This document shows positions 56,954 to 63,878 of a DNA stretch of 64,000 bases, piece by piece. The position numbers and the translations under genes are program-made. The DNA is taken from positions 3,360,001-3,424,000 of the forward strand of contig CBDCOX010000002.1 of the NCBI GenBank assembly GCA_965219995.1. The letters are read 5' to 3'. The stretch's first letter is position 1. Each line of letters begins with the position of its first letter. The notes under the pieces were generated by a model, which worked only from the letters and a program-made list of their open reading frames with translations, had not been told where the DNA came from and ran no database searches. Source of the stretch: Candidatus Latescibacterota bacterium (GTDB taxonomy: Bacteria > Latescibacterota > UBA2968 > GCA-2709665).

Positions 56954-58063
56954 ATGAATCAGCGATTACCACATTCAGATCAACTGGATATCGCAACACT
57001 GAGTAGATTGTTCAGGCATACGACAAATTCGTACAAGTATCTCTTTTTTATGTCGTTGCTGACGATGTTAAAGGACAGGCATTTCCTGGTCAAGGATGGC
57101 ATTAAGCTCAGCGAAATCGAGATTGAGATGCTGGTTACCGCATGGTATCCCCATGTTTTTTTCAGGTTGTCATTTGGCACGCAGGACCAGATCGCTCAGG
57201 TACTGAATTCTATCGAGTACATCAAGGATGACAGAAATTACCTGTCATCAACGGGGCGCAGGAAATTGAGGAAACATCTCGCCCGCAATAGTAAGTCGTC
57301 GGATTACAAATTAACGCGTTTCGTCCCGTTTCGAATACTACGCCCGTTTTTCTCCACGGAAACGAGAGGAATACCAGATCAAAGGGTGAACCGCGAGGTC
57401 TCCAGTCTCGCCGCCGAACAATTCCATGTACGACGCCCTCTTTTCCGCTTCGACGATTGTGAAAGAAGAATCTTTATGCATCCGGATTGGGTTGCCTATA
57501 TGAAAGAACATCAGACGATTCTCGAGGGGTGGGGGCTATGGCATTGGTCAGATTATATGCAGCGACGGAATCCAGGTATTCCCGCTGTAACGCGAAAGTT
57601 GTTTCCCCCGGATCGGAGAGCGCCACTCTACGCACAGCGTAGGTTCTGGGATGCTGCGATCGATGAAACGAACATACGATGCATCTACACAGGAAAGAAG
57701 CTGGTTCACGGATATGAATTGGATCACTTCCTGCCGTGGAGATTCGTAGCTCACGATCAGTTGTGGAATCTCATACCCGTCGATTCCCGGGCGAACAGTT
57801 CCAAAAGCGATCAAATTCCTTCAGAGATTTACATCGACCGCCTGGCTGAAATCCAGAGTGTCGCGCTATCAATTGCAAGGGACAGCATGAGCGATGCGAA
57901 ATGGAAAAAGGAAGTTGAACCCTATTCCACGGACCTTTATATTGACGATGTTGAGACTCTGGATCGCGAGAAACTTAAGTCTGCATATTGCAGAACGTTG
58001 AGGCCGCTGATGTCAATTGCGGAACAACAGGGATTCCAAAGCGGGTGGATCTATGAAGCATAG
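56954..58063 (+). CDS. HNH endonuclease domain protein (low-GC, putative defence)
   Basis: CIYTG...ELDHFLPW...DQLWNL......NSSKSD HNH motif; N-terminal TNSYKY; visibly AT-richer than its neighbours. Confidence 0.85.
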   Translation: MNQRLPHSDQLDIATLSRLFRHTTNSYKYLFFMSLLTMLKDRHFLVKDGIKLSEIEIEMLVTAWYPHVFFRLSFGTQDQIAQVLNSIEYIKDDRNYLSSTGRRKLRKHLARNSKSSDYKLTRFVPFRILRPFFSTETRGIPDQRVNREVSSLAAEQFHVRRPLFRFDDCERRIFMHPDWVAYMKEHQTILEGWGLWHWSDYMQRRNPGIPAVTRKLFPPDRRAPLYAQRRFWDAAIDETNIRCIYTGKKLVHGYELDHFLPWRFVAHDQLWNLIPVDSRANSSKSDQIPSEIYIDRLAEIQSVALSIARDSMSDAKWKKEVEPYSTDLYIDDVETLDREKLKSAYCRTLRPLMSIAEQQGFQSGWIYEA

Positions 58064-62513: not shown

Positions 62514-63878
62514 CTATTTCTCCCGGTTCTTGACAGCGTCGCGGATTTCGCGGATGCCGCCTTCCAGCCTGTCCAGGCGTTCGTTGGCGCTGTTCATCTC
62601 TTCCCTGATCTTCGCGACCATACCGGCCTGTTCTTCAAGTTCCTCTGCGTGTATGGAGTCTTCTTCCTTGACGAGAATACTCGTCAGCGTCGCCGTGAAG
62701 ACGCCCACCAGGACCATTCCGGTGATCACCAGAAAAACGGTGAGAATTCTGCCGGAAGGAGTCTCCGGGTTGTGGATGTCGGCGTAACCGCCGGTGACAA
62801 GCGTCGTGAAGCTCCACCAGAGGCTTTCCCAGAATCCGGAACCGGACTCCATGTGTTCCAGAAACATGAAGACGCATGCGCCGAAAACAAGCGACATGAG
62901 GCCATAGAGAAGGGACCGTTTGAGAAGCCGCACGTCCAGCGTGGTGCTGAGGTGGTCCATACCCCGCCAGAAGAACAGTCCGATGCGCATCAACCGCAGC
63001 GCCCGAAGAATCCGCACGGCCCGCAGAAGCCGACCCAGGCGTACGACGCCAAGGTCGCCGGAGGCGGCAATGACCTGCACCGGGGGAAGCGGAATGGACG
63101 TGATGAAGTCGATCCAGTTGTTTTTCCAATACCACTTTTTGGAATGGGCAAGCTTGTGCTCGAAGACGAAGTTGGCCATGAAAATGGTGCAGCACACCAC
63201 GTCGATGATCCACAAGATCCACAGCGTGCCCACAGAGAAGTGGGGATGTACTTCCACAACCGGTTTCTTGTATTTCGCGCCGCGATCTACAATGTCCACC
63301 CCGGTCAGTTTTCCGGCGGTCACGTGCCCGGAAACGAGTGCGCCGGACCCGACCGTGTCCACAATGTGTATGTTCACTCGCTCATATCCGGCGCCCGCTT
63401 TCGTAATCAGGATCTTGCTGATCTTACCCTCTTTCACTTCCGCCGTTGCCGCCGCGCCGCCTCCGCTGGCGCCGATGCCGAGCAGATCCACGACAAGGAT
63501 CGAGATCAGAAACAGGATGAGAAAGAAGATGACGATGTCCTTCACGTAAACGTTCCGGACGCTGCCCAAAACGCTGGCTTGCCTGTCCATCAGATGTTTC
63601 TTCTGGAAGGCCTGTTCGATGACCCGGGCCTTGTCCTCCAGCCCCTGTCTTTCCTCGTTCAACGTCGAAATCCGCGAATCCGCCGCGTCCAGGTCCAGTT
63701 CGTAGCGGCCATGTTTCTTGTTCAGGGCGACCGCGTCCGCACTTCCGGCCATACGGTTGATCTTCTCTTCCTCCGAGGCCAACTCGCGGTCGATCTTCTC
63801 GATCTCCCCTCCGACCAGGTCTCTCATCCTCCTGATGCGGTCGAGGGAACACGTTTCGATACGCTTTAGATTTGCCAT
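62514..63878 (-). CDS. Voltage-gated ion channel (6-TM Kv-like) with atypical filter and extracellular insertion
   Basis: NWIDFITSIP S3, RLGRLLRAVRILRALRLMR S4, SLWWSFTTLVTGGYADI pore, P.T..GR S6, N- and C-terminal coiled coils. Confidence 0.88.
   Translation of the reverse strand: MANLKRIETCSLDRIRRMRDLVGGEIEKIDRELASEEEKINRMAGSADAVALNKKHGRYELDLDAADSRISTLNEERQGLEDKARVIEQAFQKKHLMDRQASVLGSVRNVYVKDIVIFFLILFLISILVVDLLGIGASGGGAAATAEVKEGKISKILITKAGAGYERVNIHIVDTVGSGALVSGHVTAGKLTGVDIVDRGAKYKKPVVEVHPHFSVGTLWILWIIDVVCCTIFMANFVFEHKLAHSKKWYWKNNWIDFITSIPLPPVQVIAASGDLGVVRLGRLLRAVRILRALRLMRIGLFFWRGMDHLSTTLDVRLLKRSLLYGLMSLVFGACVFMFLEHMESGSGFWESLWWSFTTLVTGGYADIHNPETPSGRILTVFLVITGMVLVGVFTATLTSILVKEEDSIHAEELEEQAGMVAKIREEMNSANERLDRLEGGIREIRDAVKNREK

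What the first reader, a model, noticed from the sequence alone, without database searches (positions are those of the whole stretch)
63250..63475. Phage-virion-like beta-repeat domain inserted in the S1-S2 loop of the channel
About 75 aa between S1 and S2 form two repeats (GGGAAATAEVKEGKISKILITKAGAGY; GSGALVSGHVTAGKLTGVDIVDRGAKY). They match the G.GA.A.A....G.I..I.I...G.GY pattern I recall from tailed-phage structural proteins and some adhesins. An extracytoplasmic domain grafted onto a voltage sensor, plus a coiled-coil N-terminus of about 100 aa, suggests ligand or mechanical gating. I know of no described example.
Basis: partly seen in the sequence, partly recalled or inferred. Interest (0 to 1): 0.7.

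Follow-up and report, generated by a model that had tools for sequence, protein, structure and literature searches.

The report
Phage-type beta domain on voltage sensor
A bacterial voltage-gated-type ion channel carries, in the outward-facing loop of its voltage sensor, a small folded beta domain of a kind otherwise seen in giant phage particle proteins and giant cell-surface proteins, an arrangement not described for bacterial channels.

Summary
The gene at window 62514-63878 (- strand, 454 aa) encodes a Kv-like 6TM channel. It scores 58 bits on Pfam Ion_trans, its closest solved relative is KvAP, and S4 carries seven arginines. An 83-residue all-beta domain (residues 136-218, window 63225-63473) sits between S1 and S2.

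The domain is an internal duplication of a ~40-residue G-x-G-A...G-x-G-Y unit. It has no Pfam family and no solved structure. It matches PHROG virion-structural and baseplate families (E down to 2e-8). It folds confidently (pLDDT 94) into a shape found in predicted cyanophage structural proteins (TM 0.73-0.88). It also matches 21 times in a 3161-aa phage-like giant protein, and it recurs in giant cellular surface proteins.

Sixty-one diverse channels carry it and 19 close relatives have only a short loop. The core tree is compatible with a single gain. The insert is under purifying selection (dN/dS 0.18). Topology places it in the periplasm.

Only fold-determining residues are conserved, so a shared specific ligand site is not supported. 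I read it as a built-in periplasmic accessory module on the voltage sensor, analogous to the TRPP/TRPML S1-S2 domain. Its function is untested. This is a new variant of a known kind.

The parts
62514..63878 (-). Whole gene: 454-aa Kv-like 6TM channel (P0001), stop codon included
   Evidence: ORF list and translation. Pfam Ion_trans 58.4 bits against a cut-off of 25, and Ion_trans_2 46.7 bits. KvAP is the best solved relative, E 5e-14.
63543..63878 (-). Cytoplasmic N-terminal region, residues 1-112: two long helices with a small beta hairpin between them
   Evidence: AF2 gives helices 12-45 and 62-104 and strands 52-55 and 58-61. The region is also present in insert-less relatives.
63474..63542 (-). 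S1 transmembrane helix (residues 113-135)
   Evidence: Hydropathy peak at 111-134. AF2 helix 107-133.
63225..63473 (-). Inserted periplasmic beta-repeat domain, residues 136-218
   Evidence: PHROG hits. AF2 on the insert alone gives pLDDT 94.3 and six strands. BFVD matches. Absent from 19 relatives.
63357..63473 (-). Repeat 1 of the insert (residues 136-174): G-x-x-G-x-G-A ... G-x-G-Y, three strands
   Evidence: Strands 143-149, 152-160 and 167-173.
63237..63356 (-). Repeat 2 of the insert (residues 175-214), three strands. The last strand runs almost directly into S2.
   Evidence: Strands 181-187, 190-198 and 207-213, then a helix from residue 216.
63159..63224 (-). S2 (residues 219-240) with D226, F233, F237 and E240
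   Evidence: D226, F233 and F237 are present in 80 of 80 aligned sequences and E240 in 70 of 80. Aligns to KvAP S2.
63063..63119 (-). S3 (residues 254-272) with D257
   Evidence: D257 is present in 80 of 80 sequences.
62982..63047 (-). S4 (residues 278-299): arginine at every third position, R280 to R298, seven in all
   Evidence: Each of the seven arginines is present in 76-80 of 80 sequences.
62859..62915 (-). S5 (residues 322-340)
   Evidence: Hydropathy. AF2 helix 317-341.
62778..62834 (-). Pore helix and filter (residues 349-367), filter T-G-G-Y-A-D
   Evidence: Filter variants across the family are TGGFAD, TGGYAD, TGGFGD and TGGYPD.
62670..62747 (-). S6 (residues 378-403)
   Evidence: Hydropathy. 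AF2 helix from residue 374.
62517..62669 (-). Cytoplasmic C-terminal long helix (residues 404-454), continuous with S6
   Evidence: AF2 helix 374-453.

Best explanation
Shown. The gene encodes a tetramer-type, Kv-like six-helix cation channel with a complete voltage-sensor signature. An 83-residue, six-stranded beta domain has been inserted into its S1-S2 loop. The domain is an internal duplication of a ~40-residue unit. It belongs to an unnamed repeat family that builds long arrays in giant phage virion proteins and in giant cellular surface proteins. On the core tree all insert-bearing channels fall in one clade, which is compatible with a single gain. The insert has been kept, with only small length changes and under purifying selection, across lineages that are now only about 40% identical.

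Inferred from homology. The domain faces the periplasm and sits directly on top of the voltage sensor. It is tied to S2 by about two residues and to S1 by a glycine-rich nine-residue tether.

Inferred mechanism. The domain acts as a built-in periplasmic accessory module, four per channel, one on each peripheral voltage sensor. It biases or stabilises the sensor through contacts with the neighbouring S3-S4 loop or pore turret, and/or through low-specificity contacts with envelope polymers, as Ig-like modules on phage surfaces are thought to do (that comparison is recalled, not tested here). It is not a receptor for one conserved small ligand. The channel itself remains voltage-gated.

My confidence in the architecture is about 0.9. 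My confidence in the modulatory-module mechanism is about 0.35.
For: Channel identity:
- Ion_trans scores 58.4 bits.
- KvAP, Kv2.1 and Kv1.2 are the best PDB matches.
- D226, F233, F237, D257 and R283 are in 80 of 80 sequences. The other six S4 arginines are in 76-79 of 80.

Insert is a real domain:
- AF2 on the insert alone gives pLDDT 94.3 and pTM 0.81.
- In the full-length model the ten-residue blocks spanning residues 131-220 have pLDDT 80-88.

Family of the domain:
- PHROG 701, 2885 and 19630 score E 1.9e-8 to 3.4e-7.
- The inserts of the distant homologues P0124 and P0125 hit such families independently, while insert-less P0126 hits none.
- 19 BFVD matches have E <= 0.001, TMq 0.73-0.88 and 24-37% identity.
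- P0164 (3161 aa) matches the insert in 21 stretches and scores 1.4e-126 on phrog_701.
- Cellular giant proteins also carry the repeat.

Insertion event:
- 61 of 80 aligned sequences carry the insert and 19 do not.
- The 61 plus P0126 form a clade with SH-aLRT 98.
- Holding the 61 together as one clade is not rejected, p-AU 0.19.

Selection:
- dN/dS is 0.18 for the insert, 0.06 for S2-S6 and 0.18-0.29 for the cytoplasmic helical regions.

Topology:
- K/R counts are 3, 4 and 4 in the pre-S1, S2-S3 and S4-S5 loops, against 0, 0 and 1 in the S3-S4, S5-P and P-S6 loops.

Tight coupling to S2:
- The last strand is 207-213 and the helix starts at 216.

Against one conserved ligand site:
- Only G136, G139, A142, G151, G162, Y165, G189, G200, Y203, P212 and the alternating hydrophobic positions are conserved.
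- Many alternating strand positions, taken as outward-facing, have 2.6-3.5 bits of entropy.

Stand-alone gene:
- No neighbour is conserved across genera.
Against: - No functional data exist. The position of the insert relative to the S3-S4 loop cannot be read, because that part of the full-length model is poor (pLDDT 50-67 around residues 271-330) and I had no access to coordinates or PAE.
- Variable surface residues would also fit lineage-specific ligands, or diversifying selection by a changing partner, which I did not test site by site.
- The filter T-G-G-Y-A-D departs from the K+ signature at two positions, so ion selectivity, and therefore the physiological role, is unknown.
- One insert-less protein (P0126) sits inside the insert-bearing clade. 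The channel can therefore evidently exist without the domain.
- The insert evolves about three times faster than the membrane core.
Confidence: 0.55

Rival explanations
1. Dedicated sensor. The periplasmic domain binds a specific ligand or is pulled mechanically, for example through a tether to peptidoglycan or the outer membrane. That event is transmitted through S1/S2 to open or close the channel.
For: The domain is rigidly joined to S2 and is periplasmic. It is retained under purifying selection. The same repeat builds surface-exposed arrays in phage and adhesin-like proteins, where binding is a plausible role. TRPP/TRPML channels use an S1-S2 domain in gating (PMC7001106; the gating role itself is recalled, not read).
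Against: No conserved polar surface patch is seen across 61 sequences. No partner gene is conserved nearby. The domain occurs only once in the genome, so there is no cognate repeat-bearing partner there.
Confidence: 0.2
2. Structural passenger. The domain is a tolerated insertion that helps only folding, membrane insertion or stability, or shields the sensor. It does not take part in gating.
For: The insert's conservation level is the same as that of the loosely constrained cytoplasmic helices. Conserved residues are only the fold-determining ones. An insert-less member lies inside the clade.
Against: The insert has been retained with only small length changes (the 128-226 segment is 99-106 residues) in 61 of 61 clade members listed, down to about 40% identity. 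Within the phylum, 49 of 49 genomes with the channel have it full length with no stop. A neutral 83-residue insert would be expected to decay or vary more in length.
Confidence: 0.2
3. Phage-related role. The virion-like domain is a periplasmic contact point for phage particles that carry the same repeat. It could be exploited by a phage as an inner-membrane receptor, or used by the cell to sense a penetrating tail and depolarise the membrane.
For: The domain family is most abundant in phage virion, baseplate and neck proteins. A SoFic defence gene lies about 540 bases upstream in this genome. Phages encode relatives of the channel core (phrog_7872, E 2.1e-27).
Against: The channel has no PADLOC match. 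SoFic is next to the channel in only 2 of 13 same-genus loci, and neighbours are metabolic genes elsewhere. No relative of the channel was found in viral contigs. The repeat is also common in non-phage surface proteins.
Confidence: 0.04
4. Artefact. The 'insert' is an assembly or annotation error, or low-complexity sequence without structure.
For: The first part is glycine- and alanine-rich. tblastn against phage GenBank records found nothing.
Against: The insert is present in frame in 35 full-length genome loci of different species, in 5 metagenome loci and in 49 genomes of the phylum. It gives a confident fold and significant HMM and fold matches.
Confidence: 0.01

Closest known systems
KvAP and other prokaryotic Kv channels (Pfam Ion_trans PF00520)
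   Same: Six-helix layout, an S4 with regularly spaced arginines, acidic and aromatic residues in S2/S3, a pore helix plus a filter ending in G-[YF]-x-D, and the best sequence matches in the PDB (6uwm, 2a0l and 1orq, E 5e-14 to 2e-11).
   Different: KvAP has a seven-residue S1-S2 loop where this protein has an 83-residue folded domain. The filter is T-G-G-Y-A-D rather than T-V-G-Y-G-D. A ~110-residue N-terminal helical region and a long C-terminal helix are added.
TRPP (polycystin-2) TOP domain and the TRPML luminal domain
   Same: A folded extracytoplasmic domain inserted between S1 and S2 of the voltage-sensor-like domain of a six-helix tetrameric cation channel. [quoted passage not shown]
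   Different: Those channels are eukaryotic. Their domain is 2.6 times larger, and it forms a tetrameric cap with an added S3-S4 insertion (the cap is recalled). Here the domain has 83 residues, is all-beta, is of phage/adhesin repeat type, and has linkers too short to reach neighbouring subunits (inference). No PC2 or TRPML chain appeared among the listed fold matches, which does not exclude similarity.
Unnamed ~40-residue G-x-G-A...G-x-G-Y repeat of giant phage virion proteins (PHROG 701, 19630, 4406, 2885, 708, 438, 460) and giant cellular surface proteins
   Same: Sequence profile matches and the same predicted six-stranded double-repeat unit, with TMq up to 0.88 and rmsd 0.9-2.5 A over 77-84 columns.
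   Different: In those proteins the unit is repeated head to tail many times in soluble, extracellular or virion proteins. Here there is a single unit embedded in a membrane-protein loop. No Pfam family and no solved structure exist for the repeat.
Ig-like domains displayed on phage particles and bacterial adhesins (filamin, fibronectin type III and Big-type folds)
   Same: A small beta domain used in tandem arrays on exposed surfaces. Weak structural resemblance: VIA Z 3.2-3.6 to TCR, filamin and fibronectin type III domains.
   Different: All Z values are below 5 and the best Foldseek E is 0.78. There is no Pfam Ig-type hit. The internal two-fold repeat is not an Ig feature.

Membership tests
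Voltage-gated ion channel superfamily (Pfam Ion_trans, Kv-like 6TM) | Match to the Ion_trans profile above the curated cut-off | tested here: met
   58.4 bits against a cut-off of 25, residues 220-402 on profile positions 33-233. S1 is not covered because of the insert.
Voltage-gated ion channel superfamily (Pfam Ion_trans, Kv-like 6TM) | S4 with basic residues at every third position | tested here: met
   R280, R283, R286, R289, R292, R295 and R298, each in 76-80 of 80 sequences.
Voltage-gated ion channel superfamily (Pfam Ion_trans, Kv-like 6TM) | Counter-charges and an aromatic residue in S2/S3 (charge-transfer centre) | tested here: met
   D226, F233, F237 and D257 are in 80 of 80 sequences and E240 in 70 of 80. 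Equivalence to Kv1.2 E226/F233 rests on spacing and is recalled, not aligned residue by residue.
Voltage-gated ion channel superfamily (Pfam Ion_trans, Kv-like 6TM) | Tetrameric assembly and voltage-dependent gating | not testable with these tools
   Needs a structure or electrophysiology.
K+-selective channels | Filter signature T-[VI]-G-[YF]-G-D | tested here: not met
   The filter is T-G-G-Y-A-D here. Across the 80 aligned sequences the counts are TGGFAD 38, TGGFGD 25, TGGYAD 13, TGGYPD 2, TGGFTD 1 and TGGYGD 1. I therefore do not file the protein as K+-selective. Selectivity is open.
Unnamed phage/adhesin G-x-G-A...G-x-G-Y beta-repeat domain | Profile match to the repeat region of phage virion protein families | tested here: met
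   The insert alone scores E 1.9e-8 on phrog_701, 1e-7 on phrog_2885 and 3.4e-7 on phrog_19630. Ten families have E <= 0.001. The negative control P0126 has none.
Unnamed phage/adhesin G-x-G-A...G-x-G-Y beta-repeat domain | Two tandem ~40-residue units forming one fold unit | tested here: met
   Internal repeat with hhalign probability 98.3%. Six strands arranged 3+3. BFVD matches cover 70-92 columns, that is both halves.
Unnamed phage/adhesin G-x-G-A...G-x-G-Y beta-repeat domain | Agreement with an experimentally solved reference structure | not testable with these tools
   No solved member was found by sequence or by fold.
TRPP/TRPML S1-S2 (polycystin/TOP) domain | Position between S1 and S2 on the extracytoplasmic side | tested here: met
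   This is an analogy of position only.
TRPP/TRPML S1-S2 (polycystin/TOP) domain | Homologous fold of about 200 residues | tested here: inconclusive
   The insert has 83 residues, all beta, against 218 residues in PC2. No PC2 or TRPML chain is listed among the fold matches, which does not exclude a relation. I do not file it as a member.
Ig-like / bacterial Big domains | Profile or fold match to an Ig-type family | tested here: inconclusive
   No Pfam hit at E <= 1. The best VIA Z is 3.6 and none reaches 5.

The most novel reading that the evidence does not exclude
The inserted domain turns the voltage sensor into a receptor. Four virion/adhesin-type modules in the periplasm would bind envelope glycans, or phage particle proteins carrying the same repeat, or would transmit a mechanical pull from the cell wall. 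They would convert that event directly into movement of S1-S2 against S4. This would be the first natural prokaryotic channel in which an extracellular binding domain is hard-wired to a voltage sensor, and possibly a phage-sensing depolarising channel.
Probability: 0.08. Interest if true: 0.85.

Novelty: new variant of a known kind. Interest (0 to 1): 0.55.

Why it matters
- Voltage-sensor domains are usually regarded as self-contained membrane modules. In bacteria no folded extracellular domain attached to one has been described. My two literature searches returned none in their listed results.
- The family offers a natural paired experiment: 61 channels with the domain and 19 close relatives with a short loop. 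It can show how an external module loads or biases a voltage sensor. This bears on the TRPP/TRPML S1-S2 domains and on engineering sensor-coupled channels.
- The domain is a single, well-behaved 83-residue copy of a repeat that fills thousands of residues in cyanophage virion proteins and in giant surface proteins. That repeat has neither a Pfam family nor a solved structure. The single copy is therefore a convenient target for a first structure and a first binding study.

Tried and rejected
- tblastn of the 83-residue insert against 50,697 phage records: no match at E <= 0.01. A single short glycine-rich query with the low-complexity filter on is probably too weak, since the profile and fold searches did find phage relatives.
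- PDB by sequence. The insert alone gave only a chance-level hit, E 0.97. P0164 gave none. The profile of 23 inserts gave a best E of 0.0085 to a hydrogenase maturation factor, with per-stretch E 0.82, which I judge to be chance.
- PDB by fold. Foldseek found 0 matches at E <= 0.001. VIA-align against 48,161 chains found 0 with Z >= 5. The top rows are generic beta sandwiches. T4 and KP1 tail-sheath domains appear at Z 3.0-3.1, which is a lead only.
- Scan of viral contigs with the 80-sequence alignment: no relative of the channel.
- ESM Atlas. The machine was closed for the window's own sequence. With the stored homologue P0015, the best scores were 0.79 to unnamed clusters, below the tool's trust level.
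- Earlier findings of this scan: nothing by sequence, words or place.
I did not repeat it and used the domain-only model instead.
- PADLOC: no defence family for the channel.
- Search for a conserved partner gene. MFS and PD40-repeat genes follow the channel in 13 of 13 same-genus loci, but in none of the other 36 loci searched. Elsewhere the neighbours are formate-tetrahydrofolate ligase, a PLP decarboxylase and a TonB-dependent receptor. I rejected an operon-partner reading.
- A TOP-like tetrameric cap was considered and set aside on geometry: short linkers, a small domain and peripheral sensors. This is inference. I ran no complex prediction, because the report claims no binding.
- No sequencing-run search was made.
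Full report
**What is there**

The finding lies in one gene, window 62514-63878 on the - strand, 454 codons. Hydropathy and motif positions give the following layout:

- a hydrophilic N-terminal region, residues 1-112
- S1, residues 113-135
- a mildly hydrophilic stretch, residues 136-218
- S2, residues 219-240
- S3, about residues 254-272
- S4, residues 278-299
- S5, residues 322-340
- a pore helix and filter, residues 349-367
- S6, residues 378-403
- a hydrophilic tail, residues 404-454

Pfam finds Ion_trans (58.4 bits, cut-off 25) on residues 220-402, aligned to profile positions 33-233, and also Ion_trans_2. It finds nothing on residues 136-218 at E <= 1, and NCBIfam also finds nothing there. 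The best solved relatives are KvAP (E 5e-14), Kv2.1 and the Kv1.2 paddle chimera. The KvAP alignment starts in KvAP's own S1-S2 loop and runs through S2. This fixes the two helices that flank the insert as S1 and S2.

The insert as a whole is window 63225-63473, slightly longer at the S2 end than the 63250-63475 given.

**Is the repeat real?**

The two halves of the insert align with a Smith-Waterman score of 53, against 21 +/- 4.4 for shuffles, and 0 of 2000 shuffles reach it. Profiles of the two halves built from 61 homologues match each other at 98.3% probability, E 2.2e-14. AlphaFold2 predicts three strands per half. In the full-length model the ten-residue blocks spanning residues 131-220 have pLDDT 80-88 (80-sequence alignment). 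Predicted alone from 23 sequences, the insert has mean pLDDT 94.3 and pTM 0.81. It is a folded, all-beta domain, not a disordered linker.

**What kind of domain is it?**

The insert alone matches ten PHROG families at E <= 0.001. Nine are annotated virion structural protein, baseplate wedge subunit or head closure protein, and the best are phrog_701 (1.9e-8), phrog_2885 (1e-7) and phrog_19630 (3.4e-7).

The distant homologues P0124 and P0125 hit such families through their own inserts. P0123 does not at E <= 0.001. The insert-less relative P0126 hits only channel families, which serves as a negative control.

The exhaustive HMMER search with the whole protein found a 3161-residue protein, P0164, that matches residues 136-218 in 21 separate stretches. 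P0164 has no Pfam family and no PDB relative. It scores 1.4e-126 on phrog_701 and hits 15 further virion-type families.

The domain model has 19 matches at E <= 0.001 in BFVD, with TMq 0.73-0.88 and 24-37% identity. They include structural, baseplate-wedge and neck proteins of Synechococcus phages and proteins of uncultured Caudovirales.

A search with two repeat units of P0164 among proteins of 1738-5532 residues gave 327 hits. Besides a Synechococcus phage S-CREM2 baseplate wedge protein, they include giant cellular proteins named by their sources as:

- multicopper-oxidase-domain proteins of Methanoperedens and Chloroflexota
- VCBS-repeat and Ig-like-repeat proteins of Planctomycetota
- an autotransporter-associated repeat protein of Prosthecobacter
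- a 'fibronectin-binding autotransporter adhesin'

Against solved structures nothing convincing appears:

- phmmer and hmmsearch found nothing credible
- the best Foldseek E is 0.78
- VIA-align found no Z >= 5 among 48,161 chains. The top rows (Z 3.2-3.6) are generic Ig-like sandwiches, and two phage tail-sheath domains appear at Z 3.0-3.1

The repeat family therefore has neither a Pfam model nor, as far as these searches see, an experimental structure.

**Is it an insertion, and when did it happen?**

Close relatives (66-98% identical, 437-460 residues) fill the first homology search. Thirty-five full-length copies lie in genome records labelled Latescibacterota or Gemmatimonadota. All 31 that I aligned carry the insert, with a single one-residue length change.

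More distant proteins (40-47% identical; some are named potassium channel family protein or ion transporter of Verrucomicrobiales) also carry it.

In an 80-sequence alignment, 61 proteins have 99-106 residues between the positions equivalent to 128 and 226, and 19 have 21-30. The 19 share the N-terminal helical region, all six helices, the filter type and the C-terminal helix.

A tree of the membrane core, built with the insert columns removed, puts the 61 together with one insert-less protein (P0126) in a clade with SH-aLRT 98. That tree needs two changes of state. Holding the 61 together as one clade is not rejected (p-AU 0.19). The data therefore fit one gain, with or without one later loss.

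Within the window's phylum, 49 of 168 genomes have the channel, always full length and without stops, and none of the other 119 has a match at E <= 1e-20. The domain profile finds the same 49 genomes, plus one genome with a 1764-residue open frame. Each of these genomes has exactly one copy of the domain, including the window's own.

**Selection**

Pairwise Nei-Gojobori estimates over 25 orthologues give the following dN/dS values (ratio of sums, 244-279 pairs per region):

| Region | dN/dS |
|---|---|
| Insert | 0.18 |
| S2-S6 | 0.06 |
| S1 | 0.11 |
| N-terminal region | 0.29 |
| C-terminal helix | 0.18 |

The insert is constrained, though less so than the membrane core.

Across the 61 diverse inserts, the positions kept in at least 90% of sequences are G136, G139, A142, G151, G162, Y165, G189, G200, Y203 and P212. 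The alternating hydrophobic strand positions are also well kept. Many of the alternating strand positions between them carry 2.6-3.5 bits of entropy; I take these to be outward-facing. So what is conserved is the fold, not a recognisable binding patch.

**Side of the membrane and coupling**

By homology with KvAP and Kv1.2, the S1-S2 loop is extracytoplasmic (the sidedness of the loop in those structures is established knowledge). The lysine and arginine counts agree. The pre-S1, S2-S3 and S4-S5 segments have 3, 4 and 4, while the S3-S4, S5-P and P-S6 loops have 0, 0 and 1.

In the full-length model the last strand of the insert (207-213) is followed after two residues by the S2 helix, which starts at 216. 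S1 ends at 133, nine glycine-rich residues before the first strand. The domain therefore sits directly on S2.

How it packs against S3-S4 cannot be said. That part of the model is poor (pLDDT 50-67), and I had no coordinates.

**The channel itself**

The sensor looks fully functional on paper. There are seven arginines at every third position of S4, each present in 76-80 of 80 sequences. D226, F233 and F237 in S2 and D257 in S3 are present in 80 of 80.

The filter is T-G-G-Y-A-D. Insert-bearing relatives have TGGFAD (35), TGGYAD (13), TGGFGD (11) and TGGYPD (2). Insert-less relatives are mostly TGGFGD (14 of 19). This departs from the K+ signature T-[VI]-G-[YF]-G-D, so I leave selectivity open.

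**Context**

The neighbours are ordinary chromosomal genes:

- downstream: an MFS transporter, a 1004-residue PD40-repeat protein, an HNH-domain protein, ATP sulfurylase and haem-synthesis genes
- upstream, beyond the window: a Fic protein, MoaC and MoeA

The Fic protein matches the SoFic defence family (E 1.7e-117), but it is present in only 2 of 13 same-genus loci. MFS and PD40 follow the channel in 13 of 13 same-genus loci and in none of the other 36 loci. In another genus the neighbours are metabolic genes. The channel has no PADLOC match, and no relative was found in viral contigs. I see no conserved partner and no prophage.

**How it most likely works**

Shown: a Kv-like channel carries one copy of a phage/adhesin-type double-repeat beta domain in the S1-S2 loop, compatible with a single gain and maintained by selection.

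Inferred from homology: the domain is periplasmic and sits on the voltage sensor, four per tetramer, at the periphery.

Inferred mechanism, about 0.35: it is a built-in accessory module that biases or stabilises the sensor. It would do so through contacts with the S3-S4 loop or the neighbouring turret, and/or through low-specificity contacts with envelope polymers. It would not be a receptor for one conserved ligand.

The rivals are:

- a dedicated ligand or force sensor (0.2)
- a structural passenger (0.2)
- a phage-related contact point (0.04)
- an artefact (0.01)

The deletion or loop-swap electrophysiology, together with binding screens on the isolated domain, would separate these readings.

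**Comparison with what is known**

In function and membership, the membrane part is a member of the voltage-gated ion channel superfamily. The profile, S4 and counter-charge features are met. The K+ signature is not met, and gating is not testable here.

The insert is a member of an unnamed repeat family defined here by PHROG profiles and predicted folds.

The closest architectural precedent is the TRPP/TRPML domain between S1 and S2. In polycystin-2 this is a 218-residue insertion (PMC7001106, Introduction passage read). That is an analogy of position, not membership.

For bacterial channels, two full-text searches produced no described case among the papers listed (42 papers held the terms, 15 listed; 128 held the terms, 12 listed). 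I saw only the listings and abstracts, so a description elsewhere cannot be excluded.

**Verdict**

This is a new variant of a known kind, of moderate to good interest. It offers a natural with/without pair for studying how an external domain loads a voltage sensor. It is also a tractable single copy of a very widespread but structurally uncharacterised phage and surface-protein repeat.

Noticed in passing
L051:616-1779 (- strand), about 540 bases upstream of the channel and just beyond the window's end: A 387-aa Fic protein matching the SoFic anti-phage defence family (PADLOC E 1.7e-117; Pfam Fic_N + Fic). It is present at this place in only 2 of 13 same-genus loci, so it looks like a variable insertion between moaC and the channel.
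   Followed up: partly
window 62517-63224 (residues 219-454 of the channel): The channel core matches a phage-encoded family of unknown function, phrog_7872 (E 2.1e-27, profile positions 46-242 of 254). This implies that phages carry short Kv-like channels without the insert.
   Followed up: no
P0126 (409 aa): An insert-less channel that groups inside the insert-bearing clade (SH-aLRT 94 as sister to the P0125 group). It has a somewhat longer S1-S2 loop than other insert-less relatives. It may represent a secondary loss of the domain.
   Followed up: partly
G093:C272:249-473 (same phylum): The only non-channel occurrence of the repeat among 168 genomes of the phylum. It lies in a 1764-residue open frame (E 1.4e-8), which could be a giant surface protein or a prophage gene.
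   Followed up: no
window 62637-62846 (residues 345-414): Pfam Lig_chan (ligand-gated ion channel, glutamate-receptor type) scores 31.4 bits, just over its cut-off of 30.8, on the pore helix to post-S6 stretch. Together with the unusual T-G-G-Y-A-D filter, this leaves ion selectivity open.
   Followed up: no
window 56954-58063 (+ strand): A 369-aa ORF with an HNH_4 endonuclease domain. It gives weak PADLOC hits to the HNH region of Cas9 models (E 2e-7) but has no other Cas9 features.
   Followed up: no
L001-L036 record titles: Records carrying near-identical orthologues are labelled variously Candidatus Latescibacterota, Gemmatimonadota/Gemmatimonadaceae, and once Aminicenantes (a 2.2-kb contig). 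The public taxonomic labels for this lineage are inconsistent.
   Followed up: no
P0152 (463 aa): An insert-bearing homologue whose sequence loses all similarity after S3. It looks like a frameshifted gene call.
   Followed up: no
L041:5682-7406 (+ strand): A 574-aa ORF without a Pfam family lies directly downstream of the channel in 5 of the metagenome loci (L041 itself, L037, L042, L043 and L044) of the Verrucomicrobia-like subfamily.
   Followed up: no
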